A stretch of 64,000 nt of DNA from Octopus vulgaris. Taxonomy: Eukaryota. Position numbers and translations under genes: made by a program. Below, in pieces: positions 3,689-54,988 of this stretch. Under the pieces are notes generated by a model. It saw only the letters and a program-made list of their open reading frames with translations. It was not told the origin of the DNA and made no database searches. The first letter of the stretch is position 1, and each line of letters begins with the position of its first letter. The stretch covers positions 12,276,001 to 12,340,000 of the forward strand of contig OX597837.1 of the NCBI GenBank assembly GCA_951406725.2, written 5' to 3'.

Positions 3689-3863
3689 CAAGTGGATTCC
3701 TTATGTGTTTAAATATACACTATATCGTATGACTAATATATAGTCTTCTTGACTTATTTTTTTTGCACGTTAGGCCACTGGAAATGTAAATTTTGATTGA
3801 ATGTCTTAATTTTAATTAAATTCCATTTCCCCCTGATATGATTATATAGAAATATATATATAT

Positions 3864-4085
3864 ATTTCTTTATTGCCCACAAGGGGCTAAACATAGAGGG
3901 GACAAACAAAGGGATTAAGTCGATTATATCGGCCCCAGTGCGTAACTGGTACTTTATTTATCGACCCCGAAAGGATGAAAGGCAAAGTCGACCTCGGCGG
4001 AATTTGAACTCAGACCGTAACGGCAGACGAAATACGGCTACGCATTTCACCCGGCGTGCTAACGTTTCTGCCAGCTCGCCGCCTT
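3864..4085 (-). mobile_element. tRNA-headed SINE, family B (Meta-domain-like core)
   Basis: RC reads ggcggcgagctggcagaaacgttagcac...gagttcaaattcc (B box)...gcctttcatcctttcggggtcgataaat...gtaccag. There are many copies in the window. Confidence 0.85.
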
Positions 4086-4102
4086 AGGCGCAGGAGTGGC
4101 AT

Positions 4103-4509
4103 AGGCGCAGGAGTGGCTGTGTGGTAAGTAGCTTGCTAACCAACCACATGGTTCCGGGTTCAGTCCCACTGCGTGGCATCTTGAGCAAGTGTCTTCTGCT
4201 ATAGCCCCGGGCCGACCAATGCCTTGTGAGTGGATTTGGTAGACAGAAACTGAAAGAAGCCTGTCGTATATATGTATATATATATGTGTGTGTGTGTGTT
4301 TGTGTGTCTGTGTTTGTCCCCCTAGCATTGCCTGACAGCCGATATTGATGTGTTGACGTCCCCGTCACTAAGCGGTTCGGCAAAAGAGACCGATAGAATA
4401 AGTACTGGGCTTACAAAGAATAAGTCCCGGGGTCGATTTGCTCGACTAAAGGCGGTGCTCCAGCATGGCCGCAGTCAAATGACTAAAACAAGTAAGAGAG
4501 TAAAAGAGT
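4103..4509 (+). mobile_element. tRNA-headed SINE, family A (CORE-like), full length
   Basis: It has A/B-box-like head ggagtggctgtgtggtaag...gggttcagtccc, CORE-like cttgagcaagtgtctt, an internal TA/TG repeat, and tail ggcggtgctccagcatggccgcagtc plus gtaaaagag repeats. Recurs at 8156, 54584, 56006 and 61248. Confidence 0.9.
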
Positions 4510-5170
4510 ATAGAAATATATATAGGCTCTGCGGGAAGACGTGTATTTCTCAACCTCATGATTCAGAAAAAAACATGGGGAGGCATGTTCTGTCTCACTG
4601 CCTGTCACTTTGGGCAAGTGTCTTCTATAGCCCCGGGCCGACCAAAGCCTTGCGAGGAGATTTGGTAGACGGAAACTGAATGCGAATGTTTTACATATCT
4701 TTACAGTTCCAGTGTTGGCTTGGATCTGTACTCTTCGAATCAGCTCTCTCTCTCTCTCTCTCTTCTGGTTTTGAGAAGCCTAATTTCTCAGGATTGATAT
4801 GTGTGTAAGTACAAGTATATGTATGTCTGTGTGTCTGTATGTATATATGTACATCAGTACCTACGAATGCATGTCTGTATGTATGTATGTGTATGTATGC
4901 ATCTCTTTATATATGTCTGTACATGTCTACATCTATGTATGTATGTATGTATGTATGTATGTATGTATGTATGTATGTATGTATGTATTTTCCTTGGGGC
5001 TGGTCGGATCGGAGCAATCTTAAGATAAATCAGCCGAAATTGCGAGGATGATCCGGTTCTTGACTGAAGATTAGAGGCTTCGAATGACCCGTCCGTTTTT
5101 TGTGTCGTCTATTTGAGTGTTTTGCGTTCTTGTCTCATTTTGTATTTTTACATGTATTTTTTATACATAT

Positions 5171-5289
5171 GCTTACGGCCATATCACGTTGAAAGCACCG
5201 GTTCTCGTCTGATCATCGAAGTTAAGCAACGTCGAGCCTAGTCAGTACTTAGATGGGTGACCGCTTGGGAAACCTAGGTGCAGTAAGCA
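5171..5289 (+). rRNA. 5S rRNA sequence (solitary; probably the head of a 5S-derived SINE or a retrocopy)
   Basis: 119 nt, gcttacggccatatcacgttgaaagcaccggttctcgtctgatc...agttaagc (A box)...agatgggtgaccgcttggga (C box)...gtaagca. The GCTTAC/GTAAGC ends pair as helix I. There is no immediate T-run terminator; a SINE/LINE-type tail follows. Confidence 0.88.
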
Positions 5290-5593
5290 TAGCACATTGT
5301 TCAGCGGTGGTGCCCCAGCATGGCCGCGGCCTTCGGGCTACAACATTTTTAAGGATTTAAGGATATGTATGTATGTCTTTCTGTATGCCTGTATTGCCTG
5401 TATGTGCGTATGCCTGCGTGTATGTCAGCGTGTCTATCTCTCCGTGTGTTTGTATGTATGTGTGTGTATGTGTATGTATGTACGAATCGGCGAACGAGGA
5501 AGAGAAATTTGTTGTTGAGTACACTGGAGTTTCATTTTAAAGTATTTAATAATAGGTTGAGCTGAATCTGACTGTTATTAAATAGTTATAAGC

Positions 5594-5648
<55 letters not shown>

Positions 5649-5666
5649 CGCACATACATATTCATA

Positions 5667-5899
5667 TATTTCTTTATTGCCCACAAGGGGCTTAACACAG
5701 AGGAGACAAACAAGGACAGACAAATGGATTAAGTCGATTACATCGACCCCAGTGCGTAATTGGTACTTTATTTATCGCACGACGAAAGGATGAAAGGCAA
5801 AGTCGACCTCGGCGGAATTTGAACTCAGGACGTAACGGCAGACGAAATACGGCTACGCATTTCGCCCGGCGTGCTAACGTTTCTGCCAGCTCGCCGCCT
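5667..5899 (-). mobile_element. SINE family B
   Basis: Near-identical to 3864-4085. Confidence 0.85.
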
Positions 5900-6181
5900 T
5901 ACATACATATTCATAGGTGTACATGTGTGTGTGTGTGCACCCGTGTATGCGTGTGTTTGTGTAATGTATATGTATATCTATGCATTTGTATGTGCGTGCT
6001 TGAATATTTTATTAACGGATTTATGATTTTTACACACACATTATCAAAAACAAAAAAAGATTTACGAGCAGTTAGGGCGATGAAAAGAGAACAGGATATT
6101 TAATGAAAATATATAACCTGTAATTATAATATTATTCTCGCGTTATAATTCTCTTTACGAAAACACCATTCAAAATATCTA

Positions 6182-7169: not shown

Positions 7170-7299
7170 TGCAATTATCTTACAAACTACAGAATTTTCT
7201 CAAGAAAGCCAAGAGAAAAAGATGTTTTATAAACACATTCTACCAGTATACGAAGTTTAAAATAGACCACCTAATCGAAGTTTAAAATAGACCACCTAA

Positions 7300-7911
7300 T
7301 CTCAGGGTGTAGAATCTTAGCACCTGTAGAATATAAAGCAAGGTATGACAGAGTCGGCCAGTATTTACACTGGAGAATATGTCGGCATTATAAAATCGAA
7401 ACCGCTGACAAATGGTATAAACATCATCCTGAAGCTGTGACTGAGGGAGAACATGTGTCGATTCCATGGGACTTCCCCGTACATACCGACAAAACTATAA
7501 AAGCTAATAAACCGGATATTATTATAAAAGATCAGACAAAAAAGATGTGTTTATTAATTGACATGAGTATTCCTTGGCAGCTCAAGGCGACTACAGTACT
7601 AGTGATTGTAGGATCTCTAGGAATGATAAAAAAAGGGTACTGAAGCATATTTGAAACTGATACCAGGCTTACCATCCCCACAGGAAGTGCAGAAAATCGT
7701 GTTAACTGGAACGGCTCATGTACTGAGAAGAGCATTATCGCCGTGAAAACCACATCCATTCATGAATTTATTTATTAATTTTTAAATACATATTTTTACC
7801 TATGAATTTGCGTGTGTAATCTGGGAATGCATACAATGAGCTTCTCTGCCCTAGGTATACGGAAAACACTCGGCGAGAAACGGAAGAAAATTTGAAAAAA
7901 GAAGGAAAAAG

Positions 7912-10318: not shown

Positions 10319-10943
10319 GTTATTATTATTATTATTATTGTCTTTTGAAGACTTTTGTTTTTGGATAATGTACAAATAGGAGTTAATTGCCTGAGTCAAA
10401 AAAAATCAAAAAAATCAGCGGCATGGTCATGCATGGAGAGCCTATGTTTATATGTCTGTTCGATCAGACAGGATCAAGACAGCAACAGTAACAACAACAA
10501 CAACAACAACGAAAATAACTAACAATAGCAACAAAATACAACCAGAACACCAACAGCAACAACAACAACAAAATCAACAACGTCGACAACTCGACCTGCT
10601 AGAAAAAACAACCAAAAACCTACCTCAAATTTACACGTCCCTTTACAACAAACTCTTTAAAAAAATACGTATTGAAATTACAATTTTAGCGGCTTTAGAT
10701 ACACTAAACTACTTTTGTTTGAGAATATACCATGAGATGGTCACGAGTGGAGAGCTTTAGGCCTAGATCTTCTTAAAGTGAGTAGACTTAGGAGTGGCGG
10801 TTGTGCTGGTGGGGAAATCCTCAAGCAACATCATGAGATAAATACTTAACAAGAGTAAGTAATTTTGCAAGCCTCTTCTTATCTCTCTTCTGAAATGAAT
10901 CTGTTGTTTTATCTTCAATCTATAAACAATATCTTTACGCAAC

Positions 10944-11526
10944 GAAGGCAGTGAGCTGGCGGAAACGTTAGCACGCCGGGCGAAATGCTCTGCGGTATTT
11001 CGTCTGCCGTTACGTTCTGAGTTCAAATTCCGCCGAGGTCGACTTTGCCTTTCATCCTTTCGGGGTCGATTAAATAAGTACCATTTACGCACTGGGGTTG
11101 ATGTAATCGACTTAATACCTTTGTCTGTCCTTGTTTGTCCCCTCTGTGTTTAACCCCTTGTGGGTAATAAAGAATTAAGAATCGTTAGCACGCCGGATAA
11201 GTAAAGGGTAGTAAAGAAATAGGTATTTCGTCTGCCGTTATGTTCTGAGTTCAAATTCTGCCGAGGTCGACTTTCATCCTTTCATCCTTTCGGGGTCGAT
11301 TAAATAAGTACCAGTTACGCACTGGGGTTGATGTAATAGACTTAATCCGTTTGTCTGTCCTTGTTTGTCCTCTCTGTGTTTAGCCCCTTCGTGGGTAGTA
11401 AAGAAATAGGTATTTCGTCAGCCGCTACGTTCTGAGATCAAATATCGCCGAGGTCGACTTTGCCTTTCATCCTTTCGGGGTCGATTAAATAAGTATCAGT
11501 TACGCACTGGGGTCGATATAATCGAC
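10944..11526 (+). mobile_element. Tandem array of ~3 SINE family B copies
   Basis: gaggtcgacttt...catcctttcggggtcgattaaataagta recurs at ~11035, ~11265 and ~11450. Confidence 0.85.
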
Positions 11527-12052
11527 TAAATGATGGTGTAGATCACAATTATATCGAAATTTAATGTAAAAAAAAAGAAAAAAACTATCTGTATTATAAT
11601 ATACTGAATGTCTTTTTTTTTGAAGCTGTGCTGTGTTGCGTCATATCTATGTTGAAAGACAATCAGAAACACACAGACACACACAGAGGAATAAACACAC
11701 ACACAAGGAATGCACAAACACACACACACGCAAAGGAATGCATGGACTCATACATACAACCTACATACAAACAAAAAAATTATCTCTATATTGTTACATA
11801 ATGAAAGATCTTTTGAAGCTGTGAAGCGGTATGTTGACAGACTTGCACATGAAATTAACGCGTTTTAATCAAAACTTGTTAGATACTATGGTGACAATAT
11901 TACCCACCCATCTGCCTGCCTACCTACCTACCTACCTACCTACCTACCTACCTACCTACCTACCTACCTACCTACCTACCTACCTACCTACCTACCTACC
12001 TACATACCTACTTACTTACCTACCTACCTACACACACATCACACATATATAT

Positions 12053-18595: not shown

Positions 18596-19028
18596 TTATA
18601 AGCACATAGAGAGACGATGTATATGATAACGAAGATGAGAAATGATTTCATGTACGCTGTTTTTATAGCTCTACGTTTTATCTCTCTGTTCAGGTTAACG
18701 GAAACAGACGATGAAAGGAACACACCAACTTCCGGTGACTCTGTATTATAGGATATCGCAATGTAAAGGATGCATGTGAAAACCTGAAAGCAGCTTCTAA
18801 CATACAGGCGCCAAACATGAGAATATCAATAAAAACTGAAATATATTTATACTAAGATAGATAAATATATAGAAACAAAAACAAACTTTCCCCCCACACA
18901 AACAGGAACAAACATCTACGCATACACACTCATATAACGAAAAGAAGAAAAACAGTTCCAATTTCGCATTAGATTAAACAAAATCAAAGGAGAGTAAGAA
19001 TTAGAGGTTATCTGAATATCAGTCAACA

Positions 19029-20522
19029 ATGGCGAAGTTTAGCAGCTGTTTCGGTCGATATTGTTCATACCGATGGAAGTTATGTTATATATGTTCGATT
19101 GCGATATTTCTCCTGCAGACGATGAGGGTCGATTTAAGTATGGCCTTTGTTTGTATGTTGAAGACACCAAATCGCACGGCTAACGACGCCAACAGCACTC
19201 AGAGTACCCAACAGTGTTCTGGCCTTGATACTCACAATCAGTCCTCACACGAAACATACAATGGAGAGATCACCTGGAGCAACACTCTTCAAGCGAATGT
19301 ATTAGCCGGTTATTACTACGGTTACATTCTAACAAATATTCTTGGAGGCATTTTAGCAGATAAATATGGCGCTAAAAATATTCTAGGCTTTTCTCTCGTT
19401 TCAGCATCGGCTCTGACTTTGCTCTACCCGAGTTTATCTCGAATAAGTGGTTACTTTACACTTGTCTTAAGGATATTAACTGGGTTAGTATCTGGCCCGA
19501 TGTTTCCAACGGTGCAATCTTTATTTGGTCGGTGGGCTCCACCTCTTGAAAGTAGCACATTGATTGGTCTTGTATGTTCTGGTCAACTCATAGGTAGTAT
19601 TGTATGTTATTCTATATCGGGTTTCCTCTGTGTGTATGGATTTGACAATGGGTGGGGTTCTATATTTTATATATTTGGGGGAATGTCACTGTTGTTCAGT
19701 TCTGCTTGGTTCTATTTTGTCTACGATCGTCCAGAGCTCCATCCGTCTCTTGGTCAAGAAGAACGCGCGTACTTGAATAAAACTGTAAGGTGTAAAAGTA
19801 GAGTTAAAAACATACCCTGGAAAAACATTTGGAGTTCGTCTGCTGTTTGGGCCATCGTTGTTGCCCACACTTGCTATAACTGGACTGATCTTACCCTTAC
19901 CTTATTACTACCACTCTACATGAAAGAAGCCTTGAACGTCGAAACAGAATCAAATGGTTTAATGTCATCTGCTCCTTGGATAGGGCAAGCCATTTCCTTG
20001 CCCTTGTTCGGAAGACTTGCAGATTTTATACGCTCAAAGAACTGTCTGTCAACCCGTTCGATCCGAGTGCTTTTCCAAACTGTGTGTTTCGTTTTCTCGG
20101 CGATTCTATTCATTTCTGTAGGTTTTCTGAAATGTGACCAAGTCCCATTGGCTGGTTTTCTCTTTCTTTTTTGTGGTGTCATCTGGTCTCTCTATATAGG
20201 CGGTTTTAATGTGAACCACGTTGACATTGCTCCGAAATACGCTGGTGTATTGTATGGTATTACGAATACATTTAGTTCCCTACCAGGATTTGTGGCTCCA
20301 ATAACAGCTAGAATACTTACACCGAATGGAACGCAAAAAGAATGGCAAATTGTGTTAGCTTTATGTGCAGGGTTTTCTGTGTTAGGGGCAATAGTATATG
20401 CGATTATGGCGAAAGGGGAAATTCAAGATTGGGCCAAGTACGAAGATAGTTCTATAAATGAAAGAGAATCTCTGAATTTGAAAGAGAGAAGTGCAATTGA
20501 CGGAGATTGTGAAAAGGTTTAG
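19029..20522 (+). CDS. SLC17/sialin-like MFS organic anion transporter, 497 aa, single coding exon (paralog 1)
   Basis: Motifs MRVDLSMAFVCM (TM1 Arg), GGILADKYGAK (MFS motif A), WAPPLE, GWGSIFYIFG, PWKNI, NHVDIAPKYAGVLYGITNT and W..V...GEIQDWA, with ~12 hydrophobic segments. AATAAA lies ~45 nt after the stop. Confidence 0.95.
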   Translation: MAKFSSCFGRYCSYRWKLCYICSIAIFLLQTMRVDLSMAFVCMLKTPNRTANDANSTQSTQQCSGLDTHNQSSHETYNGEITWSNTLQANVLAGYYYGYILTNILGGILADKYGAKNILGFSLVSASALTLLYPSLSRISGYFTLVLRILTGLVSGPMFPTVQSLFGRWAPPLESSTLIGLVCSGQLIGSIVCYSISGFLCVYGFDNGWGSIFYIFGGMSLLFSSAWFYFVYDRPELHPSLGQEERAYLNKTVRCKSRVKNIPWKNIWSSSAVWAIVVAHTCYNWTDLTLTLLLPLYMKEALNVETESNGLMSSAPWIGQAISLPLFGRLADFIRSKNCLSTRSIRVLFQTVCFVFSAILFISVGFLKCDQVPLAGFLFLFCGVIWSLYIGGFNVNHVDIAPKYAGVLYGITNTFSSLPGFVAPITARILTPNGTQKEWQIVLALCAGFSVLGAIVYAIMAKGEIQDWAKYEDSSINERESLNLKERSAIDGDCEKV

Positions 20523-23700: not shown

Positions 23701-24964
23701 ATTTTATACTCAACTAAGGAGTTGGTTTTCGATGTGATCAGCAGAAATTCATGAAGGCGGTGGTCAGCCATGGGTGGAGACAGACGACTGCAATCATTAA
23801 ATTAATGGAATAAATATATAGACAAGTATAAGCACATAGAGAGACGAGGTAAATGATTATCAAGGTGAGAAATGATTTCATGTACGCTGTTTTTATAGTT
23901 CTCCATTTTATCTCTCTGTTCAGGTTAACGGAAACAGACGATGAAGGGAACATACCAACTTCCGGTGACTCTGTATTATAGGATAGCATAATGTACAGGA
24001 TACATAAGAAAAACTGAATTATAAGGCACCAAACACGAGAATATCGATAAAAATGGAAATATAGTAAGATAAATATACATATACAAAAAACTTTACCCGT
24101 TCATATGTACTCACAGACACACATATACATAGAAAGAGACAAATACTGAAGTGTAAGAGATATCTTGACTCTGATTGATAAGAGCCACAATAATCAAAGT
24201 TGGGCATATGAAATAAAACCCAATCGATGTTTGCGCTCATAATTATAAATACTGTACATATACACAGTTAGTATCTCACAAGTATCTCACAACCGGAATA
24301 TTCCAACTGATGGCCATCCATGCCCGTCATCAAATAACCAAAAGAAAAAGAATGAAAAATGGTCTAGGGAAGATAATAAAGAAGTTCTTACGGCCTTCTA
24401 CCATGACATATATTTCCCCACAGATACTTGTATATATACACGGCTAGTATCTCACAAATATTTGCTTAATCCCTCTGATACCGAAGCGCCCGCGCCTACT
24501 CATTTTACTATATTTTAGAGTAATTTGAATTTAATTAAGATTCCATCAAAATTTCAGGTGAAATTATGGTTCAGACATTAGTTTTATATGAAATTCTTTT
24601 TATATGAAATATTTTATGAAATTCTTTGTAATTTTTAAAATCCTTTGAGAGAAAGACAGTTTATTTTAACAGAAATATGGTATGAGAGGAACTGAATGCT
24701 TTCTGATAGTTTGGCTCTGGTTTATGTGAACTAAAACAATTTCGAATACATCACACAAACAAGTATTGATTTAGATACACTTCAAGAAATACAACCTGTA
24801 CAATACACTTATCCCCACCTCACACCCCCACACACAAACAGGAACAAATATCTACGCATACACACTCATATAACGAAAAGAAGAAAAACAGTTCCAATTT
24901 CGCATTTGATTAACGAAAATCAAAGGAGAGTAAGAATTAGAGGTTATCTGAATATCAGTCAACA

Positions 24965-26452
24965 ATGGCGAAGTTTAGCAGCTGTTTCGGTCGATACTGT
25001 TCATACCGATGGAAGTTATGTTATATATGTTCGATTGCGATATTTCTCCTGCAGACGATGAGGGTCGATTTAAGTATGGCCTTTGTTTGTATGTTGAAGA
25101 CACCAAATCGCACGGCTAACGACGCCAACAGCACTCAGAGTACCCAACAGTGTTCTGGCCTTGATACTCACAATCAGTCCTCACACGAAACATACAATGG
25201 AGAGATCACCTGGAGCAACAATCTTCAAGCGAATGTATTAGCCGGTTATTACTACGGTTACACTCTAACAAATATTCTTGGAGGCATTTTAGCAGACAAA
25301 TATGGCGCTAAAAATATTCTAGGCTTTTCTCTCGTTTCAGCATCGGCTCTGACTTTGCTCTACCCGAGTTTATCTCGAATAAGTGGTTAGTTGTCTTAAG
25401 GATATTAACTGGGTTAGTATCTGGCCCGATGTTTCCATCGGTGCAATCTTTATTTGGTCGGTGGGCTCCACCTTTTGAAGGTAGCGCATTGCTTGGTCTT
25501 GTATTTTCTGGTCAACTCATAGGTAGTATTGTATGTTATTCTATATCGGGTTTCCTCTGTGTGTATGGATTTGACAATGGGTGGGGTTCTATATTTTATA
25601 TATTTGGGGGAATGTCACTGTTGTTCAGTTCTGCTTGGTTCTATTTTGTCTATGATCATCCAGAGCTCCATCCGTCTCTTGGTCAAGAAGAACGCGCGTA
25701 CTTGAATAAAACTGTAAGGTGTAAAAGTAGAGTTAAAAACATACCCTGGAAAAACATTTGGAGTTCGTCTGCTGTTTGGGCCATCGTTGTTGCCCACACT
25801 TGCTATAACTGGACTGATCTTACCCTTACCTTATTACTACAACTCTACATGAAAGAAGCCTTGAACGTCGAAACAGAATCAAATGGTTTAATGTCATCTG
25901 CTCCTTGGATAGGGCAAGCCATTTCCTTGCCCTTGTCCGGAAGACTTGCAGATTTTATACGCTCAAAAGAACTGTCTGTCAACTCGTTCGATCCGAGTGC
26001 TTTTCCAAACTGTGTGTTTCGTTTTCTCGGCGATTCTATTCATTTCTGTAGGTTTTCTGAAATGTGACCAAGTCCCATTGGCTGGTTTTCTCTTTCTTTT
26101 TTCTGGTGTCATCTGGTCTCTCTATATAGGCGGTTTTAATGTGAACCACGTTGACATTGCTCCGAAATACGCTGGTGTATTGTATGGTATTACGAATACA
26201 TTTAGTTCCCTACCAGGATTTGTGGCTCCAATAACAGCTAGAATACTTACACCGAATGGAACGCAAAAAGAATGGCAAATTGTGTTAGCCTTATGTGCAG
26301 GGTTTTCTGTGTTAGGGGCAATAGTATATGCGATTATGGCGAAAGGGGAAATTCAAGATTGGGCCAAGTACGAAGATAGTTCTATAAATGAAAGAGAATC
26401 TCTGAATTTGAAAGAGAGAAGAGCAATTGACGGAGATTGTGAAACGGTTTAG
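24965..26452 (+). pseudogene. SLC17/sialin-like pseudogene, recent duplicate of paralog 1
   Basis: Collinear with 19029-20522. ctttacac is replaced by g (net -7 nt), creating TAG at 25388-25390, and there is a +1 A at 25965-25968. Length 1488 = 1494-7+1. Confidence 0.88.
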
Positions 26453-28405: not shown

Positions 28406-29842
28406 TGTGTGAGTTTTTGAGCTTGTCTTTGTACCCACTACCGCTTGTGTACCGGTGTTGGTTTGTTTACGTCACCGTAACATTAACGGTTCGACAAAAG
28501 AGACCGATAAAATAGATAGTAGGTCTAAAATTAAAATTTGTCCTGGTGTGTTGATTTGTTCGACTAAAACCCTTCAAAGCAGTGCCTCGGTATGGCCACA
28601 GTCAATTTACTGAAACAAGTCAAAGATAGAAAGAGACACAGAAACCTACAAATGCCCAGAACAAAATATTCCTTTGACATTGGACATCACAAGAGAAAAA
28701 AGAAAAAAATGAGGGAAAAAAGTCAAATCCTGTTGGAGAATCCTTATGAAGGAATCGCGTTCATTTGCCGAGAAAATTGCCCATCTCCAAAACATGACAA
28801 CTTCTTTCCTCTTCTCCGACCGATATAGTCTTTCTTAAAATTTGATGCATAAATATACGAGATCTGAAGTTGGATTTGAAGCAAGGTCATTTACTCAACG
28901 ACCTCAGATCACTAGATATACATGTGTTGAGCATCAATAAACCCATGAATTAAACCCATGAATTGCACCAATATCCGACACACCTTAATCAGCCTGGATC
29001 GCGAGACGGGCTGGCGGTGTCATTTCGGACTAGTTAAGTGGTTGTCGGTGGGGTCGGTTGTGAATAATCGACAGTGAAGTTGTCTGAAAAAGGGTGCTAA
29101 GGGAACAAAAATAGTGTCAAAGAAAAATAGATTAGGGAAGAAACAAATTAAAAGAGACAAATAGAAAAGCTATTGCGACTGATATACGTAGCGTCAAGCA
29201 GAGTTGCCGACATTTTTTCATAGTGAAACACGAAAATGTCGCTGTTAGAACGAAGGCACATTCGCAACAAAGCCACAATTCTTACTTAGAGGGATCGATT
29301 CCAAGTAGGGAGAACACAAACATGGTTTAAACAGTAAGCTTGGCAGGAAAGAAACGTGCCTTTAAGCAGTACAAAAACAGCAAAAAATGGAATGTGCAGT
29401 TATGTACAGGTTGACGGAAGAAAAGCAGGACACAAACGGCATTATCGATCGCATTCCAACCTGGAATCCATTTTTGTAATTTTTTCAAGACTTATACACG
29501 TCCTGATACCGTCGGTATCTACATATCGAATTTGAGCGCAATCGGATAGAGGATGCCCGAGATCCTAGAAGACACACACACAGACAGACAGAACCTCATA
29601 TCGATACTTCCGGCATAGTAGACAATGAAGGTTTTGGGCTACTTTGTCGTGTCTGTGCTTGTACTTTTTCTGCCGTAGGACTTTCACAAATTGACAATGT
29701 GGGTCACGCTTTCGACCCTCTTTCCACACATTCTGCAGAGGTTCATTGCACTTGTGTGGTTTATATTCTTTTTCACTGAGTTGGTGTTCAATGCCTGGTC
29801 CTGGGCAGCGATATCTTTTTAGGTCACCCTTGCTGAGCCCTT

Positions 29843-29900
29843 CCTATTATTATTGTTGTTGTTGCTGTGTTGTCGTTGCATTTATTTGTTGTTATCACCA

Positions 29901-31205: not shown

Positions 31206-31697
31206 ATTATCATTATTATTATTATCATTATTATTATTATGATTGTTATTATTATTACTAGTATTGACTGAGAGAGCAGTGTATGCCATCAAAGTAACAC
31301 TAGGGTAAAATATACGAAGCCCAGTACACCCATCATGATTACTCGTCTGATAAGGGTGCACCAGGCACATGCATCACAACCACATGTGTGCGATATGGTG
31401 ATCTCATATCAAGATTAACAGTGAATGACCTTGCAGGCGGGACCCAGTTAGAATTTTCCTTTGGTCCATCATATAAAAGAAAAAGTATTCCGTCGTTGCT
31501 CATGAAGAAAGCGATATGGTTTAGTGATGTGCTTAATGTGTTATTTTCGATTCCAGATTGATCAACAAGCTGCCAGAAGGAAACTCTAAATTCATCAAAA
31601 CGAAGAGACAATACTTTATTCATTTTAATTTGAATATCGGAAGTCACAAACAGTTCGAAAATCCACGAATCCAGCATAAAGAAAAAAGTCAAAAAAT

Positions 31698-33179
31698 ATG
31701 TCGAAGTTTAACGAATTTATCAACTATTATGGTTCATGTCGATGGCGGCTGTGTTATGTCAGCTTTTTCGCTTTGCTTCTCATGCAGACTTTACGTGTAG
31801 ACCTGAGTATGTCGTTAGTTTGCATGTTAAAAACACCCAATCGTACAATTGATGAAGTCAACCTTACTCGAAATAACGAACACTGTTCTCGTTCAGACAA
31901 TCGCACATCAAATGGAGAGGATTTTGAAGGAGAGTTCGAATGGAGTAACATTCTGCAATCAAACATGCTGGCTGGATACTTTTATGGATACACAATTACT
32001 AACCTTCTTGGCGGTGTATTAGCTGACAAATATGGTGGAAAGAGAGTTATGGGGGTTTCCATATTCTCAGCTTCTCTCCTGACCCTTCTTCACCCAAGTC
32101 TAACTCGAATAAGTGGTTATTTTACTCTCGTATTAAGGACACTTACAGGTCTGGTTTCAGGGCCCATGTTTCCTGCAGTGCAGTCCTTGTGGGGTCGATG
32201 GGCTCCACCTAGTGAAAGTAGTACTTTGATAGGGATTTCATTTGCCGGTCAGATATTAGGTAGCATTGTAGGTCTGTCAGCTTCCGGTTTCCTTTGTGTT
32301 TATGGCTTTGATAATGGATGGGGTTCTATATTTTATATATTTGGTGGATTATCGTTGGTGTTTAGCTTTGTGTGGATTTATGTTGTTTATGATAATCCAA
32401 ACGTTCATCCAACTATAAGCGAAAAAGAACGTTCCTATTTAAACAAAACAATAAAATGTAAAAGTAAAGTTAAGAACGTGCCTTGGAAAAGCATCATGTC
32501 CTCTACAGCCGTTTGGGCCATCATCATGGCGCATACACTAATTAACTGGACCGTTATTTCTTTTCAAGTGATTCTTCCTTTGTATATGAAGGAAGCGTTA
32601 AATATTGATACGAAATCAAACGGTTTAATGTCTTCAGCTCCGTTTATTGGGCAAATAATTGCTATACCATTTTGTGGAAGATTCGCAGACTTCTTGCGTT
32701 CAAACAATTATCTTTCAACACGATCCGTTCGAGTTCTTTTCCAGTCAGTTTCTTACATTGGTTCAGCGTCTCTGATTACCGTAATCGGGTTCCTTAATTG
32801 CAATCACACGACATTGGCCGGAATTCTTTTCTTTATTACTGGAACCAGCTTAACATTCTATTATGCAGGCCTGAGTGTAAATCATGTTGACATTGCTCCT
32901 ATATACGCTGGTATATTGTACGGAATTACCAATACTTTCGCATCGTTACCTGGCTTTGTGGTTCCTTTAACTACAAAAGCACTGACACCAAATGGAACAC
33001 AGCAAGAATGGCAAGTAGTATTATCATTGTGTGCCATATTTTCTGTGTGTGGGACAATAATCTATGCAATATTCGCGCGTGGGGATGTACAAGATTGGGC
33101 TAAATCTGATGAAAAATCGATTAAAAATTCTTCAAACGAGGAAGAAACTATAAATCTAAATGAGGTAAAACAAGGATAA
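31698..33179 (+). CDS. SLC17/sialin-like MFS transporter, 493 aa (paralog 3)
   Basis: Intact ORF with LRVDLSMSLVCM, GGVLADKYGGKR, WAPPSE, NHVDIAPIYAGILYGITNT and GDVQDWA. Confidence 0.95.
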   Translation: MSKFNEFINYYGSCRWRLCYVSFFALLLMQTLRVDLSMSLVCMLKTPNRTIDEVNLTRNNEHCSRSDNRTSNGEDFEGEFEWSNILQSNMLAGYFYGYTITNLLGGVLADKYGGKRVMGVSIFSASLLTLLHPSLTRISGYFTLVLRTLTGLVSGPMFPAVQSLWGRWAPPSESSTLIGISFAGQILGSIVGLSASGFLCVYGFDNGWGSIFYIFGGLSLVFSFVWIYVVYDNPNVHPTISEKERSYLNKTIKCKSKVKNVPWKSIMSSTAVWAIIMAHTLINWTVISFQVILPLYMKEALNIDTKSNGLMSSAPFIGQIIAIPFCGRFADFLRSNNYLSTRSVRVLFQSVSYIGSASLITVIGFLNCNHTTLAGILFFITGTSLTFYYAGLSVNHVDIAPIYAGILYGITNTFASLPGFVVPLTTKALTPNGTQQEWQVVLSLCAIFSVCGTIIYAIFARGDVQDWAKSDEKSIKNSSNEEETINLNEVKQG

Positions 33180-38165: not shown

Positions 38166-38981
38166 TGAACCGGCTCTTTCGGAATTTCTATGGTAGCTAA
38201 AGAAACGTATTTAGGCCTATTAGGACTTCCTAACGAATTTTAGACTAAAAAGATTTACCAGAACTTTCGCATAGATGACTGAGAGATTAAAGATTTGGGG
38301 GGAATAACATCGAATGATTAGTGAATTTTATGACTGGGAGGCGAAGAGATTTTAGTTCGTCCCGTAAAAATGTTCTTTTATGTAGATTAGTAAAAAGAGG
38401 AAAAGATATCACCCAAGTTTTCATAAGGTGACGGGAAGGATATGATATCCACAGACCTGAGGGCTGCATATCTGCAACGTAGTGGACCCTTTACAGTCAA
38501 CTGAAAAGCTGAACAGATAAATTAAGTGACAATATAAAGAAGTATGTAGATCGATGGATAAAATATTGTAAATTTTGTAAAGTACGGAATTTGTATTTTG
38601 TCATGTTTATATAAATAAAAACAAGTTAATAATTTTCTCTAAGAAAACCATAAAATTATTTATTAATAATGCTACACATTTTTTTTTCTTTTAAAATTAC
38701 AGATTGACCAGCACACAAAAAACAAAATAACTTCAAGTCTTGAAAATTTTCTGCTATAATACTACCCAATCGACAAAACTTACCGAGAATATATTTTCTA
38801 TTATCTGAATGTCGTGATGTTGCACGCAGTCACCCGTCATTTTATGGTTCAAATCTTTTGAGACAATTACGGAATGTATGATATTGATAGTGTATGAGAT
38901 TTTGCTGTGTATAAGCCTTACTGAAGGAGAAGCGAAAAAACTAAAAAAACTTCGAGAATACAGTTTAAACGCGCAGAGAAA

Positions 38982-40460
38982 ATGTCGAGGTTGAACGAAT
39001 TTGTCAGCCATTATTGTTCATGTCGATGGCGGCTGTGCTTTGCCAGCTTTTTCGCTTTGCTTCTCATGCAGACTTTACGTGTAGACCTTAGTATGTCGTT
39101 AGTTTGCATGTTAAAAACACCCAATCGTACAATTGATGAAGTCAACCTTACTCGAAATAACGAACACTGTTCTCGTTTAGACAATCGTACATCAAATGGA
39201 GAGGATTTTGAAGGAGAGTTCGAATGGAGCAACATTCTGCAATCAAACATGCTGGCTGGATACTTTTATGGATACATTATTACTAACCTTCTTGGCGGTG
39301 TATTAGCTGACAAATATGGTGGAAAGAGAGTTATGGGGGCTTCCATATTCTCAGCTTCCCTCCTGGCCATTCTTCACCCAAGTCTAACACGAATAAGTGG
39401 TTATTTTACTCTTGTATTAAGGATTCTTACAGGGTTGGTCTCAGGTCCCATGTGCCCTTGTGTCCAATCCCTATGGGGGAGGTGGGCTCCACCTAGTGAA
39501 AGTAGTATTTTGATAGGGTTTTCAATGGGAGGTTTAGTAGTCGGGAGCGTTGTAGGACTGTCAACGTCCGGTTTCCTTTGCGTTTATGGCTTTGATAATG
39601 GATGGGGTTCTATATTTTATGTATTTGGTGGATTATCGATGGTGTTTAGCTTTATGTGGATTTATGTTGTTTATGATAATCCAAACGTCCATCCTACTAT
39701 CAGCGAAAAAGAACGTTCCTACTTAAACAAAACAATAACATGTAAAAGTAAAGTTAAGAACGTGCCTTGGAAAAGCATCATGACTTCTACAGCCGTTTGG
39801 GCCATCATTATGGCGCATACATTTATCAACTGGACTACTTTTTCTTTTCAAGTGATTCTGCCTTTGTATATGAAAGAAGCGTTAAATATTGATACGAAAT
39901 CAAACGGTTTAATGTCTTCAGCTCCGTTTATTGGACAAATGATTGCTATACCATTTTGTGGAAGATTCGCAGACTTCTTGCGTTCAAACAATTATCTTTC
40001 AACACGATCCGTTCGAGTTCTTTTCCAGTCAGTTTCTTACATTGGTTCAGCGTCTCTGATTATCGTAATCGGATTCCTTAATTGCAACCACACGACATTG
40101 GCCGGAATTCTTTTCTTTTTCACCGGTGCCAGCCTAACTTTCTATGTTGGGGGCTTCATTGTGAATCATGTTGACATCGCTCCTAAATACGCTGGTATAT
40201 TGTACGGAATTACAAATACTTTCGGGGCGTTGCCTGGCTTTCTGGCTCCTTTAACCACAAGAGCATTGACACCGAATGGAACACGGCAAGAATGGCAGAT
40301 AGCTTTATCATTGTGTGCCATATTTTCTGTGTGTGGGACAATAATTTATGCGATTTTTGCGCGTGGGGATGTACAAGATTGGGCTAAATCTGATGAAAAA
40401 TCGATTAAAAATTCTTCAAACGAGGAAGAAACTATAAATCTAAAGGAGGTGATACAATAA
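38982..40460 (+). CDS. SLC17/sialin-like MFS transporter, 492 aa (paralog 4)
   Basis: Intact ORF with the same motifs as paralog 3. Confidence 0.95.
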   Translation: MSRLNEFVSHYCSCRWRLCFASFFALLLMQTLRVDLSMSLVCMLKTPNRTIDEVNLTRNNEHCSRLDNRTSNGEDFEGEFEWSNILQSNMLAGYFYGYIITNLLGGVLADKYGGKRVMGASIFSASLLAILHPSLTRISGYFTLVLRILTGLVSGPMCPCVQSLWGRWAPPSESSILIGFSMGGLVVGSVVGLSTSGFLCVYGFDNGWGSIFYVFGGLSMVFSFMWIYVVYDNPNVHPTISEKERSYLNKTITCKSKVKNVPWKSIMTSTAVWAIIMAHTFINWTTFSFQVILPLYMKEALNIDTKSNGLMSSAPFIGQMIAIPFCGRFADFLRSNNYLSTRSVRVLFQSVSYIGSASLIIVIGFLNCNHTTLAGILFFFTGASLTFYVGGFIVNHVDIAPKYAGILYGITNTFGALPGFLAPLTTRALTPNGTRQEWQIALSLCAIFSVCGTIIYAIFARGDVQDWAKSDEKSIKNSSNEEETINLKEVIQ

Positions 40461-44096: not shown

Positions 44097-44662
<566 letters not shown>

Positions 44663-45572: not shown

Positions 45573-46046
45573 CACACATAAGAATAAGCAATAATAAATG
45601 GTGTCCTTGCGAAAACTAATTTAAATATAAGGATTGGGAATCACTGTGAAAAGTTTGGGGACCACTTGTCTATGGTATTAATGTAAAATATTTGTACTTT
45701 GCCATACTCCGTACTTTCCTGAATAAAATTATCTTTACTTTTTCCTACGACCGCAGTGTGATTCGATGATTTCTTTATAGTTTTATATTTTCTTTCTATT
45801 TCAGGTTGATGAATAAAAACTCAAAATGGAATCTTGGTGAAGGAATTTTTTCCGATGCAATGTCTTCTCATCACCAAACACAGCCAGCAGTATATTATAA
45901 ATATTAATCTGAATCGTTGAATGGTTCCAATTGTTCATCGCAAGTACGGAAAATAAATATTGGTTAGTGTAGAACATCTTGCCGTTCCTCAAACTCACTG
46001 AGCCAACAATGGGAAAAACAGATTAGAATAGAACGTGTCAAAGAAA

Positions 46047-47528
46047 ATGTCGAAGTTGAACGAATTTATCAGCCATTATTGTTCATGTCGATGGCGGCTG
46101 TGCTATGTCAGCTTTTTCGCTTTGCTTCTCATGCAGACTTTACGTGTAGACCTTAGTATGTCGTTAGTTTGCATGTTAAAAACACCCAATCGTACAATTG
46201 ATGAAGTCAACCTTACTCGAAATAACGAACACTGTTCTCGTTCAGACAATCGCACATCAAATGGAGAGGATTTTGAAGGAGAGTTCGAATGGAGTAACAT
46301 TCTGCAATCAAACATGCTGGCTGGATACTTTTATGGATACACAATTACTAACCTTCTTGGCGGTGTATTAGCTGACAAATATGGTGGAAAGAGAGTTATG
46401 GGGGCTTCCATATTCTCAGCTTCTCTCCTGGCCATTCTTCACCCAAGTCTAACACGAATAAGTGGTTATTTCACTCTTGTATTGAGGATACTTACAGGTC
46501 TGGTCTCAGCACCCATGCTACCCGCTGTCCAGTCCCTATGGGGGAGGTGGGCCCCACCAAGAGAAAGTAGTGTTTTGATAGGGATTACAATTGCCGGTCA
46601 AACAGTCGGTAGTATTGTCGGTCTGTCAGCTTCCGGTTTCCTTTGTGTTTATGGCTTTGATAATGGATGGGGTTCTATATTTTATATATTTGGTGGATTA
46701 TCGTTGGTGTTTAGCTTTGTGTGGATTTATGTTGTTTATGATAATCCAAACGTCCATCCAACTATCAGCGAAAAAGAACGTTCCTACTTAAACAAAACAA
46801 TAACATGTAAAAGTAAAGTGAAGAACGTGCCTTGGAAAAGCATCATGTCTTCTACAGCCGTTTGGGCCATCATTATGGGGCATACACTTATTAGCTGGAC
46901 CGCTATTTCTTTCCAAGTGACTCTGCCTTTGTATATGAAAGAAGCGTTAAATATTGATACGAAATCAAACGGTTTAATGTCTTCAGCTCCGTTTATTGGG
47001 CAAATGATCGCCATACCATTTTGTGGAAGATTTGCAGACTTCTTGCGTTCAAACAATTATCTTTCAACACGATCCGTTCGAGTTCTTTTCCAGTCAGTTT
47101 CTTACATTGGTTCAGCGTCTCTGATTATCGTAATCGGATTCCTTAATTGCAACCAAACAACATTGGCCGGAATTCTTTTCTTTTTCGCCGGTGCCAGCCT
47201 AACTTTCTATGTTGGGGGTTTCGTTGTGAATCATGTTGACATTGCTCCTAAATACGCTGGTATATTGTTCGGAATTACAAATACCTTCGCATCGTTACCT
47301 GCCTTTCTGGCTCCTTTAACCACAAAATCACTAACACCAAACGGAACACGACAAGAATGGCAGATAGCTTTATCATTGTGTGCCATATCGTCTGTGTGTG
47401 GGACAATATTCTATGCAATATTCGCGAGAGGGGATGTACAAGATTGGGCTAAATCTGATGAAATATCGATTAAAAATTCTTCAAACGAGGAAGAAACTAT
47501 AAAACTAAATGAGGAAAAGCAAAGATAG
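46047..47528 (+). CDS. SLC17/sialin-like MFS transporter, 493 aa (paralog 5)
   Basis: Intact ORF. The ATG at 46047 is homologous to the starts of paralogs 3 and 4; the track start at 46035 is a GTG. Confidence 0.95.
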   Translation: MSKLNEFISHYCSCRWRLCYVSFFALLLMQTLRVDLSMSLVCMLKTPNRTIDEVNLTRNNEHCSRSDNRTSNGEDFEGEFEWSNILQSNMLAGYFYGYTITNLLGGVLADKYGGKRVMGASIFSASLLAILHPSLTRISGYFTLVLRILTGLVSAPMLPAVQSLWGRWAPPRESSVLIGITIAGQTVGSIVGLSASGFLCVYGFDNGWGSIFYIFGGLSLVFSFVWIYVVYDNPNVHPTISEKERSYLNKTITCKSKVKNVPWKSIMSSTAVWAIIMGHTLISWTAISFQVTLPLYMKEALNIDTKSNGLMSSAPFIGQMIAIPFCGRFADFLRSNNYLSTRSVRVLFQSVSYIGSASLIIVIGFLNCNQTTLAGILFFFAGASLTFYVGGFVVNHVDIAPKYAGILFGITNTFASLPAFLAPLTTKSLTPNGTRQEWQIALSLCAISSVCGTIFYAIFARGDVQDWAKSDEISIKNSSNEEETIKLNEEKQR

Positions 47529-50875: not shown

Positions 50876-51760
50876 AATTCGTTTCAGCTATGCGGCTGTA
50901 GTTATGCTGGAGCACCACCTGATTTTGCATCTTTATCTATGACTCTTCTTAGGCTGATTTCTTCATGATGGCAGGGTTTTACGTCACCAATTCCGTATGT
51001 GTTTTTGCCCAGGTTGTTGGCCCATTTAGAGCATGAGAGAGTTTGACACCGCTGCTCTCATCTGTACCTCATGCCGGTCGTTGTTTCACCCGGTATTGAG
51101 GAGAAAGTCAAGTTCTCTTTTCAAGACATCTACATGCACAAGTGTAGGTTTCTTAATTTGTGTGACAGGGCATTGAACCCTAAGCTATTTCGGAACCTGG
51201 TCTTGAATTTAGATGGAATTCATGTTAGCTCTGGTATATAACAACGACTTCCAATTCGGGCATTTGTATAACACTCAGTGCCTATATCTGCTTCTAGCCC
51301 TCCCAGAATTTCCCATATGTAGATTATTACAAATCTGTCTCGCCTCTGCTCCAGGGATTAAATATGTAGTTTATTCAGCTCCTACCCGTCGCTCATCTGC
51401 TGCACTGTTCAAATTATGTTAGCGTAGTGATGTTGGACCGCTTCAAGCTTCGCTGTTAGTTTGGTACTATGCGGTGACCATAGTTTGATACTATATAGTA
51501 GTGCTATGTAGTGTCCCTATGAAGGACAAAGGCCCTTCACATGGTTAACATAACTTCGTGTTCTCTTCTCTTGAAGGGCCTTAGTATCCATCATGCCAGT
51601 TGTTTGTACTTTGTTGCTGTCTTGGTGATGTGCATATGAAGTAATGCCTCATCGCACATACCGGTCTCCAAGACTCACATTGCTTACGACGCTGGGCTTG
51701 CAGTGCCTTCGGGACATGTATATGCATGTAGCGGTGCATTTAGCTGAAATTTTCCAACTG
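50876..51760 (-). mobile_element. Decayed CR1/L2-group LINE 3' portion
   Basis: Minus-strand translation WILRPFKRRE..VML...LWSPH...LEAVQ...SLEQRRDRFVIIYIWEILGGL matches the C-terminus of the RT ORF. The 3' end reads ggtggtgctccagcataactacagccgcatagctgaaac. Confidence 0.75.
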
Positions 51761-52330
51761 CATATTGTTTAGTTCAGCCCACTTGTATATTAGAATCAGG
51801 TGGTAGTAAAAATTCCTAAAATTTTTTTTACACTAATATTATTAATTATGTATAAAAATTTCTGGTAGATTCGTTCGAAGATTTTGCCGGCGATTTCCTG
51901 CTGCCGACAAAAAAGACTGCGATTGCGCACTGGATTTGAAAATATTTAACATATACGAGCAATGAGACGCATGCTGGATTGGTCTCGTTGTATGCGTATT
52001 CAATATATGGTGTCCCTCTTGATAACGACTTCGCCTAGTGAATAATAATTTTTATTTACTAAAATAGGTCAGTAACCACGATCCAAGAATCAGATGGTAA
52101 TTGTTTTCATTTCTTAATTCCCTTCGAAAACTTATCCCTAATTAGTGATTTGGAAATTGACTGTTATTTCTAGCGTAACGGATTCCTATGAATAATATAT
52201 TGTCTATTGACTAATTTTTTTTTTACGCAGGGCCAGTGGTAGTATAAATTTCTAAAATTTTTATTACCCTGATATTATTAATTATTTATAATAGTTTCTG
52301 GTAGATTCGTTCGAAGATTTTGCCTAATTA

Positions 52331-53015
52331 GTGGTTTGTTTTCATTTTTTAATTCCCTTCGAGAATTTATCCCTAATTTGTGGTTTGTTTTCATTTTTTA
52401 ATTCCCTTCGAGAATTTATCCCTAATTTGTGGTTTGTTTTCATTTTTTAATTCCCTTCGAGAATTTATCCCTAATTTGTGGTTTGTTTTCATTTCTTAAT
52501 TCCCTTCGAGAATTTATCCCTAATTTGTGGTTTGTTTTCATTTCTTAATTCCCTTCGAGAATTTATCCCTAATTTGTGGTTTGTTTTCATTTTTTAATTC
52601 CCTTCGAGAATTTATCCCTAATTTGTGGTTTGTTTTTATTTTTTAATTCCCTTCGAGAATTTATCCCTAATTTGTGGTTTGTTTTCATTTCTTAATTCCC
52701 TTCGAGAATTTATCCCTAATTTGTGGTTTGTTTTCATTTTTTAATTCCCTTCGAGAATTTATCCCTAATTTGTGGTTTGTTTTTATTTTTTAATTCCCTT
52801 CGAGAATTTATCCCTAATTTGTGGTTTGTTTTCATTTCTTAATTCCTTCGAGAATTTATCCCTAATTTGTGGTTTGTTTTCATTTCTTAATTCCCTTCGA
52901 GAATTTATCCCTAATTTGTGGTTTGTTTTCATTTCTTAATTCCCTTCGAGAATTTATCCCTAATTTGTGGTTTGTTTTTATTTTTTAATTCCCTTCGAGA
53001 ATTTATCCCTAATTA
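52331..53015. repeat. 49-bp minisatellite, ~14 copies
   Basis: Unit gtggtttgttttcattttttaattcccttcgagaatttatccctaattt starts at 52331, 52380, 52429, 52478 and onward. Confidence 0.95.
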
Positions 53016-53051
53016 GTGCTTTGGAAATTGACTGTTATTTCTAGCGTAACG

Positions 53052-54121
53052 GGTACTAGTCGTGGAGACTGGACCCGGTGCGCGCAGACGCGCATCCGTG
53101 CTAGCCAGTCGTAGGTAGTCGATCCTACAGTGACTTGCGTATTGTGTTTACTTTGAATAGCTACGGCAAACTGCTTTTAACAGGAAAATCGGTTACTGGT
53201 GACAAGCCAACAACGTGGGGTCAGAATTTAGTTGCCAGGCAGATAGAGGAAGGGTATTACAGTGACAGATCACAGACGAACATAACACTAATTGCCTCGT
53301 ATGAAATGGTTCACTAATTAACTTATGAGGCTCCTGTCAACGACCAAGCCTCTTTAATGTAAACTGATAGTAACCAAATTTCCCCCACGTAGGAGTAAAA
53401 CATTTCTATGAAGTAAAGGGTTACTTTACGTCTGGTTAGAAATAAACTCCTTTGATCAGGTCTGCACGACCAGGGCAGTGTTGGGACTGGGAACTGTTCA
53501 GCTGAAGTTAAAGACGAGAGTTCAGTTGGGTCTTTGGAGAAACTGAAAACAAGGAGCAAACACAGACCTTGTACAACTTCGGTCAAGAGATATCTTCCAC
53601 CGAGCTGTTAGAAATAGCAGCCGAATTTTGTTTTAAAGTCAAACTGAACAATGCAGTATTGGATTTACAACAAAGCGGGATGGCCACGACCAAAATGTCT
53701 AATAATTAAGGGTTGGTCAGGGGTTAAATTCCAGTTAAAAGAGAACGAGCATAGCTGAATGTTTAACGAAGTTTGCCGTAGCTATGCAAAGGAAACACAA
53801 GTGAATGGTCGCCTGTAGGGGTCTACTTTGAAAAAAAAAAATGTTTGACTATCCTTAAGGTTGTTTTGCTTTTTTTTTCAATGCTTCTAATTGTTTTGTA
53901 ACGAAAAAAAAAAACGCAATTGTCTTTAAAATAATATACACCGTATATCGTTAAAAAATATTTCCTAAGCTTCAGTAGGGGCTCGCTATTAACTTAGTTT
54001 TTGCAGTTTTGCGCCAATCAGCTAATTTCCATGCGCAAATCGATGTAGGATAGACCACCTACGACTGGCTAGCGCGTCTGCGCGAGTGCACGCACCGGGT
54101 CCAGTCTCCACGACTAGTACC
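53052..54121. mobile_element. Non-autonomous TIR DNA transposon (MITE), Merlin-like
   Basis: 31-bp perfect TIR ggtactagtcgtggagactggacccggtgcg (imperfect to ~78 bp), with 8-bp TSD gcgtaacg at 53044-53051 and 54122-54129. The empty site is present in other monomers. A GG-start TIR with an 8-bp TSD fits Merlin. Confidence 0.85.
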
Positions 54122-54583
54122 GCGTAACGGATTATTATGATTAATATATAGTCTATTGACTATTTTTTTTTACGCAGGGCCAGTGGTAGTATAAATTTCT
54201 ACAATTTTTATTACCCTGATATTATAAATTATGTATAATAATTTCTGGTAGATTCGTTCGAAGGTTTTGTCGGTGATTTGCTGCTGCCGACAAAAAAGAC
54301 TGCGATTGCGCACTGGATTTGAAAATATTTAACATATACGAGCAATGAGACGCATGCTGGATTGGTCTCGTTGTATGCGTATTCAATATATGGTGTCCCT
54401 CTTGATAACCACTTTGCGTCGTGAATAATAATTTTTATTTGCTAAAATAGGTCAGTAACCACGATCCAAGAATCAGATGGTAATTGTTTTCATTTCTTAA
54501 TTCCCTTCGAGAATTTATCCCTAATTAGTGATTTGGAAATTGACTGTTATTTCTAGCGTAACGGATTCCTATGAATAATGTAT

Positions 54584-54988
54584 AGGCGCAGGAGTGGCTG
54601 TGTGGTAAGTAGCTTGCTAACCAACCACATGGTTCCGGGTTCAGTCCCACTGCGTGGCATCTTGGGCAAGTGTCTTCTGCTATAGCCCCGGGCTGACCAA
54701 TTCCTTGTGAGTGGATTTGGTAGACGGAAACTGAAAGAAGCCTGTCGTGTATATGTATATATATTATCATGTGTGTGTTTGTGTCTGTGTTTGTCCCCCT
54801 GGTATAGCTTGACAACCGATGCTGATGTGTTTACGTCCCTGTTACTTAGCGGTTCGGCATAAGAGGTCGTTAGAGTAAGTACTGGGCTTACAAAAAGAAT
54901 AAGTCCTGGGGTCGATTTGCTCGACTAAAGGCGGTGCTCCAGCATGGCCGCAGTCAAATAACTGAAACAAGTAAAAGAGAGAGAGAGA
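54584..54988 (+). mobile_element. SINE family A inside satellite monomer
   Basis: Collinear with 4103-4509; same junctions as 56006 and 61248. Confidence 0.9.

What the first reader, a model, noticed from the sequence alone, without database searches (positions are those of the whole stretch)
5171..5363. 5S-rRNA-headed element with a LINE-type tail: candidate cephalopod SINE3
Seen: a full 119-nt 5S sequence lacks the adjacent oligo-T and continues atagcacattgttcagc-ggtggtgccccagcatggccgcggccttcgggct-acaacatttttaaggatttaaggat. The middle part matches the tail of SINE family A (ggcggtgctccagcatggccgcag) and the LINE end at ~50880-50920. It contains a ggcc-TTCG-ggct (cUUCGg) hairpin and ends in a short (ttaaggat)x2 repeat. 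Established: 5S-derived SINE3s with CR1/L2-type tails exist in fish and some insects, and the octopus SINEs I know are tRNA-derived. Inference: a short 5S SINE, or a one-off template-switch chimera.
Basis: partly seen in the sequence, partly recalled or inferred. Interest (0 to 1): 0.7.

Follow-up and report, generated by a model that had tools for sequence, protein, structure and literature searches.

The report
Octopus 5S RNA fused to LINE-tail
A complete copy of the small 5S ribosomal RNA gene is joined to the short end-piece that jumping genes in this octopus use to get copied, so it was pasted in by a retrotransposon; it may belong to an undescribed family of short mobile elements or be a one-off, and both kinds are known from other animals.

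Summary
5171-5290 is a full-length, nearly intact 5S rRNA (Rfam 106 bits; 33 of 34 model pairs kept) and the only one in the 64 kb. It is fused in sense to a 73-nt retroposon tail: a 15-nt linker, two hairpins and (TTTAAGGA)x2. The tail core is shared with a tRNA-type SINE, a decayed CR1-like LINE end and a 65-bp tail-only insertion. The host is an octopodid.

This is a LINE-made insertion, not ordinary 5S rDNA. Family versus one-off could not be tested, because no octopus DNA collection was available.

For a family: the tail is cut to the minimal shared module, a random window favours high-copy elements, and an O. vulgaris library carries a 'SINE/5S' label (9.8 Mb).

Estimate: SINE3-like family 0.55, one-off or recurrent template-jump chimera 0.35. 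I do not file it as a SINE3. A 5S-headed SINE is already known in a mollusc (Ante, scaphopod). Interest is modest.

The parts
5167..5170 (+). Left copy of a possible 4-bp target-site duplication (ATAT)
   Evidence: weak: 197 of 1474 ATAT sites in the window show such a recurrence by chance
5171..5290 (+). Full-length 5S rRNA head starting at +1; 29 Watson-Crick, 4 G-U and 1 broken pair (G7-A112) of 34
   Evidence: Rfam; pair count
5220..5267 (+). Internal Pol III control region of the 5S head (box A +50-64, intermediate element +67-72, box C +80-97; box positions recalled)
   Evidence: present by position and sequence, activity untested
5291..5303 (+). Short linker, probably 3' UTR of a partner LINE subfamily that is absent from this window (inferred)
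   Evidence: 5291-5305 is unique in the window at <=3 mismatches
5304..5327 (+). Tail hairpin 1, the most conserved part of the shared retroposon tail
5328..5339 (+). Tail hairpin 2 (4-bp stem, variable tetraloop, here UUCG)
   Evidence: 2 of its 4 pairs change on both sides between lineages
5340..5345 (+). ACAACA, a variant of the GAAAC motif that closes the shared core in the relatives
   Evidence: alignment A2
5346..5350 (+). T5 run, predicted Pol III terminator (transcript about 179 nt), upstream of the terminal repeats
   Evidence: T5 gave no read-through with human Pol III in vitro (PMC3141230)
5348..5363 (+). Terminal repeat (TTTAAGGA)x2, analogous to the 8-nt GTAAAAGA repeat that ends SINE A
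5363..5366 (+). Right copy of the possible ATAT duplication, followed by (TATG)n
50881..51800 (-). Comparator: decayed CR1-like LINE 3' end (broken ORF2 C-terminus, 3' UTR and the same tail core at 50881-50920)
   Evidence: CR1 label from recalled motifs only, database searches blank
4101..4510 (+). Comparator: SINE A copy with the same tail core; tails also at 9246, 28579, 54928, 56351, 61592. tRNA-type head is recalled; ARAGORN found no tRNA
44541..44605 (+). Comparator: about 65-bp tail-only insertion in another repeat; mirror copy at about 44105-44170(-); empty copies near 35200 and 44010
   Evidence: filled and empty sites compared

Best explanation
The 193-bp element was inserted as one unit by the reverse transcriptase of a CR1-like LINE, which recognises the double-hairpin tail and primes at the terminal repeats. 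It landed in a TA/TG microsatellite. I put this part at about 0.9. Its most likely source is a body-less 5S-headed SINE (SINE3-like) family of octopods. That family would have been born when the RT, after copying about 73 nt of a LINE or SINE RNA, jumped to the 3' end of a 5S rRNA. The 5S internal promoter then gave Pol III transcripts that the same LINE re-inserted elsewhere. For that cycle Pol III must at least sometimes pass 5346-5350, or the source copy had a shorter T run. Shown: the parts, the shared tail, the mobility of the tail alone (filled and empty site) and the solitary position. Inferred: priming mechanism, CR1 clade, template jump, transcription and multi-copy status.
For: A full sense 5S from +1 joins directly to little more than the 40-nt core that all four tail lineages share. 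SINE-LINE shared tails in bivalves span 35-61 bp (PMC11481361). The tail fold holds across lineages: 88.3% of 77 cells paired against 20.8-40.3% in slid controls, and 3 of 11 pairs change on both sides. Both flanks are the same microsatellite type. The rebuilt 14-nt empty site occurs once elsewhere in the window, and 0 of 11 other offsets do (weak). The O. vulgaris repeat library lists SINE/5S with 4 consensi and 9,831,953 bp. At 193 bp that would be about 1.2 copies per 64 kb, against 0.0007 for 30 one-off copies (the 30 is my assumption, scaled from human chimera counts). Human 5S/L1 chimeras are often antisense and truncated, unlike this one. HaSE3 is a precedent for a 5S SINE sharing its tail with a tRNA SINE of the same genome.
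Against: T5 lies before the terminal repeats. T5 stopped human Pol III with no read-through, and internal oligo-T was used to exclude Pol III transcription of SINEU. 4 of 4 SINE A copies checked have no T>=4, though 23% of shuffles lack one too and three of those copies belong to one duplicated array. The head keeps 33 of 34 pairs, whereas SINE3 heads tend to diverge upstream of the promoter. There is no second copy or fragment in 64 kb. The one young SINE/5S family in O. vulgaris has 7 insertions totalling 42,242 bp, about 6 kb each, so that label need not mean a short SINE; its sequences were not seen and the host here is another species. Translated-junction searches found no copy (one frame searched by similarity, weak). 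The covariation is marginal (13/500 and 16/500 shuffles), and the tail's folding energy is no better than shuffles (z -0.53).
Confidence: 0.55

Rival explanations
1. One-off or recurrent chimeric retrocopy. The LINE RT began on its own Pol II RNA, where T5 is harmless, copied about 73 nt, then jumped to an abundant cellular 5S rRNA and copied it to +1. The insertion does not propagate further.
For: It explains T5 before the repeats, the near-intact 5S fold and the junction exactly at the mature 3' end. Very short tail-only insertions happen here (65 bp at 44k). 5S/LINE chimeras are known: 10.5% of 253 human L1 chimeras.
Against: Such copies should be rare per 64 kb (arithmetic). The LINE part would usually vary in length and need not stop just at the conserved core. 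No LINE with this tail variant is in the window. Human 5S chimeras are often antisense and truncated.
Confidence: 0.35
2. Two events: a solitary 5S gene or pseudogene later received a 5'-truncated tail insertion at its terminator.
For: Tail-only insertions exist. Some LINEs target 5S genes (a Tx1 target label seen in a figure legend).
Against: No leftover oligo-T or spacer follows the tail, and both flanks read as one microsatellite.
Confidence: 0.06
3. An ordinary 5S rDNA unit whose spacer happens to contain this sequence.
For: The 5S sequence folds almost perfectly. The true octopus 5S array could not be inspected.
Against: Single copy in 64 kb; no terminator next to the gene; the 'spacer' is a retroposon tail shared with three other mobile elements; helix I has a broken pair.
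Confidence: 0.02

Closest known systems
SINE3 class: zebrafish SINE3, AmnSINE1, OS-SINE1 (PMC3747384 table passage)
   Same: 5S head; tail shared with a LINE (CR1-4_DR for SINE3 and AmnSINE1)
   Different: These are DeuSINEs with a long central domain. Here there is no body, only about 15 nt between head and tail core, and family status is unproven.
HaSE3 of Helicoverpa armigera (PMC3272025)
   Same: 5S head on a tail shared with a tRNA SINE and a LINE of the same genome; proposed origin by template switch to 5S rRNA; low copy number
   Different: RTE partner, includes a body shared with HaSE1, and 16 copies were shown.
Ante SINE of the scaphopod Antalis entalis (PMC5804259 section 5)
   Same: A molluscan SINE with a 5S-derived head
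   Different: 388 bp with CORE and V domains; its sequence was not compared here.
Small-RNA/LINE chimeric retrocopies: U6/L1 and 5S/L1 (PMC11838501)
   Same: Small RNA joined 5' of a LINE 3' end; U6 chimeras are full-length and sense like this one
   Different: Those use L1; human 5S parts are often antisense and truncated; they do not self-propagate.
'SINE/5S' class in the O. vulgaris repeat library (PMC13282606)
   Same: Shows that a 5S-containing repeat is labelled in an octopus genome (4 consensi, 9.83 Mb)
   Different: A table label only, not described in the text I read; the young family averages about 6 kb per insertion; sequences on Zenodo were not seen.

Membership tests
SINE3 (SINEBase criteria) | Head with >=60% identity to 5S rRNA over >=60 nt | tested here: met
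   Full-length Rfam match, 106 bits
SINE3 | Internal promoter boxes A, IE and C present | tested here: met
   Present by position (box positions recalled); activity untested
SINE3 | Short (<1 kb) and interspersed, not tandem | tested here: met
   193 bp, single in 64 kb
SINE3 | [quoted passage not shown] | not testable with these tools
   No eukaryotic DNA collection; indirect searches blank
SINE3 | 3' tail shared with a partner LINE | tested here: inconclusive
   26/39 identical to a decayed LINE end, with a shared fold; linker and terminal repeat differ, so the exact partner was not found
SINE3 | Pol III can transcribe through to the terminal repeats (no T>=4 before them) | tested here: not met
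   T5 at 5346-5350 in this copy; octopus Pol III behaviour is unknown. For this reason it is not filed as a SINE3.
SINE3 | Changes shared among copies but absent from cellular 5S | not testable with these tools
   One copy only; no octopus 5S gene sequence was available
LINE-made insertion | Target-site duplication or clean empty site | tested here: inconclusive
   ATAT/ATAT, 13% background; empty-site word found once
Small-RNA/LINE chimeric retrocopy | Small RNA joined 5' of a LINE 3' end in one insertion | tested here: met
   that it was a single event is inferred from the flanks
Small-RNA/LINE chimeric retrocopy | Each junction unique; no further propagation | not testable with these tools
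   Needs the genome
CR1 clade (comparator LINE at 50.9-51.8 kb) | RT-domain phylogeny | not testable with these tools
   No RT domain recognised in the remnant; Pfam, homologue and PDB searches blank; label rests on recalled C-terminal motifs
5S rDNA gene unit | Tandem array and oligo-T directly after the gene | tested here: not met

The most novel reading that the evidence does not exclude
An undescribed, independently evolved, body-less 5S SINE of octopods that multiplied although a T5 terminator precedes its terminal repeats. That would mean either that cephalopod Pol III reads through T5, or that the CR1-like RT re-creates the terminal repeats on an RNA that ends in oligo-U.
Probability: 0.15. 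Interest if true: 0.55.

Novelty: new member of a known kind. Interest (0 to 1): 0.3.

Why it matters
If it is a family, it would be a further independent origin of 5S-headed SINEs and the first I found characterised in cephalopods (10 paper searches). It is about the simplest possible design, promoter plus recognition tail, and could give content to the unexamined SINE/5S label in octopus annotations. If it is a chimera, it is a snapshot of the step thought to found such families, made by a LINE other than L1. Either way the four tail variants in this window outline the RNA signal (two hairpins, GAAAC, short repeat) that probably drives much of octopus SINE amplification. No new biological principle follows unless the T5 conflict proves real.

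Tried and rejected
GTDB scan with a 21-nt tail motif, looking for octopus contamination: 42 loci, 0 of 42 with the downstream tail motif and none matching the 5S part, so chance bacterial matches.

Translated junction as a proxy for other copies: exact look-up of a 35-aa frame was negative. phmmer of another frame against 1.84 billion representatives gave 3 weak hits, all unrelated repeat proteins. A word search among proteins of 35-114 aa found no candidate. Only one of three junction-spanning frames was searched by similarity, so this says little.

LINE clade: Pfam 0 families, 0 of 65 candidates significant, PDB 0. A language-model search of the LINE remnant was not obtained, so the clade stays a recalled label.

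Exact look-up of four SLC17 proteins: 0 of 4 found. Relaxed Rfam scan of 4000-6000: 25 matches, only 5S above its gathering score. ARAGORN: 0 genes.

Rejected ideas: (1) A81 as a box C lesion, since it faces U95 and can pair. (2) The UUCG loop as a family trait. (3) ATAT as proof of a target duplication. (4) The neighbour at 4990-5165 as part of the element: it has no other copy in the window and lies outside the candidate duplication.

Unchecked: octopus genomes and reads, Dfam, Repbase, SINEBase, the Zenodo library of PMC13282606, and the closed metagenome and viral collections. Kapitonov & Jurka 2003 and Ohshima & Okada 1994 were seen only as citations.

Full report
Observation. The sequence is as described. 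Rfam places a complete 5S rRNA at 5171-5289 (106 bits, model 1-120), the only match at gathering score in 64 kb, and nhmmer finds no second fragment. Of 34 pairs in the Rfam structure, 29 are Watson-Crick, 4 are G-U and one (G7-A112) is broken. The promoter region is in place (box positions recalled). No oligo-T follows the gene; the first T>=4 is T5 at 5346-5350.

Host. The window holds a cluster of intronless SLC17-like genes. One is 88% identical to O. bimaculoides sialin and 79% to an O. sinensis protein, and 0 of 4 were in the collection as exact sequences. The host is therefore an octopodid, species not identified.

The tail. The 22-nt core has 9 near matches, itself included, against 0.04 expected. 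A profile built from 8 tails finds 10 at E<1e-4, so 2 were independent finds. They fall into four lineages: this element; SINE A (6 tails, 3 of them in one duplicated array); a decayed LINE end at 50881-50920(-); and a 65-bp insert present twice at 44.1 and 44.5 kb inside another repeat, whose empty copies lie near 35200 and 44010. That filled and empty pair shows the tail moves as a unit. The four share about 40 nt (25-29 of 39 identical to this element) and end in different short repeats. All four fold into two hairpins. On the 8-row alignment (7 distinct rows; two SINE A tails left out, one with indels and one strongly diverged), 88.3% of cells pair against 20.8-40.3% for slid controls, and 3 of 11 pairs change on both sides, but shuffle counts of 13-177 of 500 make the covariation only suggestive. 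The element's own tail is not more stable than its shuffles (z -0.53). The LINE remnant carries ORF2 C-terminal motifs that I recall as CR1-type. Pfam, homologue and PDB searches were blank, so the clade is unconfirmed. CR1 covers 62 Mb of O. vulgaris. Stem-loop tails recognised by 'stringent' LINEs are established (PMC3747384).

Insertion site. ATAT flanks both ends, but 197 of 1474 ATAT sites would show this by chance. The rebuilt 14-nt empty site occurs once elsewhere in the window, the 16- and 18-nt versions do not, and 0 of 11 other offsets do. This fits one insertion into a microsatellite without proving it.

Mechanism. A LINE RT bound the hairpin tail, primed at the repeats and copied an RNA made of 5S plus tail (inferred, about 0.9). 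The open point is the source of that RNA.

For a SINE family: (a) the tail is cut almost exactly to the shared core, the size seen in bivalve SINE-LINE pairs (35-61 bp); (b) the 5S is full-length and sense, unlike many human 5S/L1 chimeras; (c) a random window is far more likely to hold a member of a large family than one of a few dozen one-offs (assumed numbers); (d) O. vulgaris has a SINE/5S class of 4 consensi and 9.83 Mb.

For a chimera: (a) T5 precedes the repeats, so a Pol III transcript should end at about 179 nt without them; T5 allowed no read-through with human Pol III, and the same argument was used against Pol III transcription of SINEU; (b) the head has kept helices that a promoter does not need, whereas SINE3 heads diverge upstream of the promoter; (c) the young SINE/5S family of O. 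vulgaris averages about 6 kb per insertion, so that label may be something else; (d) no second copy is present here. I weigh these as 0.55 family, 0.35 chimera, 0.06 two events and 0.02 ordinary rDNA. These are judgements, not computed values.

Attempts to count copies failed. The only DNA collection open was prokaryotic: 42 hits, none with the rest of the tail. Translated-junction searches were blank and carry little weight.

Comparison with known systems. It is built like a SINE3, but it is not filed as one. Copy number is untested (SINEBase asks for >=100 copies), and the no-internal-terminator condition fails in this copy. The closest analogues are HaSE3, the CR1-tailed fish and amniote SINE3s, the scaphopod Ante SINE, which already puts a 5S head in Mollusca, and small-RNA/L1 chimeras. 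Ten literature searches turned up no characterised cephalopod 5S SINE. That library lacks most subscription papers, and Repbase and Dfam were not searchable.

What I saw of each paper. Passages only: PMC10886601, PMC4824008, PMC4758252, PMC11838501, PMC8967140, PMC5786205, PMC3531059, PMC3141230, PMC3747384, PMC11481361, PMC3272025. Passages plus one section: PMC4494074, PMC10294476, PMC5804259. PMC13282606: parts 1-2 of 3 and the whole supplement; its consensus library is on Zenodo and was not seen. Supplements of the other papers were not read and may list octopus SINE sequences.

Verdict. A real, cleanly built 5S-plus-LINE-tail retro-insertion in an octopod, and a new example of a known kind under either leading reading. 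Interest 0.3. One genome-wide junction search would settle it.

Noticed in passing
window 19005-20522, 24941-26452, 31680-33179, 38925-40460, 46032-47528: Cluster of five intronless SLC17/sialin-like transporter genes, part of an octopod expansion; the second copy reads as three overlapping ORFs (two frameshifts or assembly errors).
   Followed up: partly
window 44105-44170(-) and 44541-44605(+): A tail-only insertion of about 65 bp inside an inverted-repeat element, with ATGCC microhomology at its 5' junction; empty copies near 35200 and 44010.
   Followed up: yes
window 51800-61850: Complex tandem or segmental array with 49-bp subrepeats and three near-identical SINE A copies (two compared: 391 of 394 identical).
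   Followed up: no
window 7275-7643(+) and 29507-29843: Fragments that look like the C-terminal nuclease region of R4/Dong-type LINEs (name recalled; Pfam blank for the first).
   Followed up: no
window 4990-5165: A non-microsatellite stretch just upstream of the 5S, single-copy in the window; probably the remnant of another repeat.
   Followed up: partly
PMC13282606 Table 1: The young 'SINE 5S' family of O. vulgaris has 7 insertions totalling 42,242 bp, about 6 kb each; it could be a 5S rDNA unit or a LINE tied to 5S.
   Followed up: no
window 3853-4086, 5658-5962, 10942-11531 and others: A second abundant SINE-like family (15 merged intervals) that gave no match to the tail profile.
   Followed up: no
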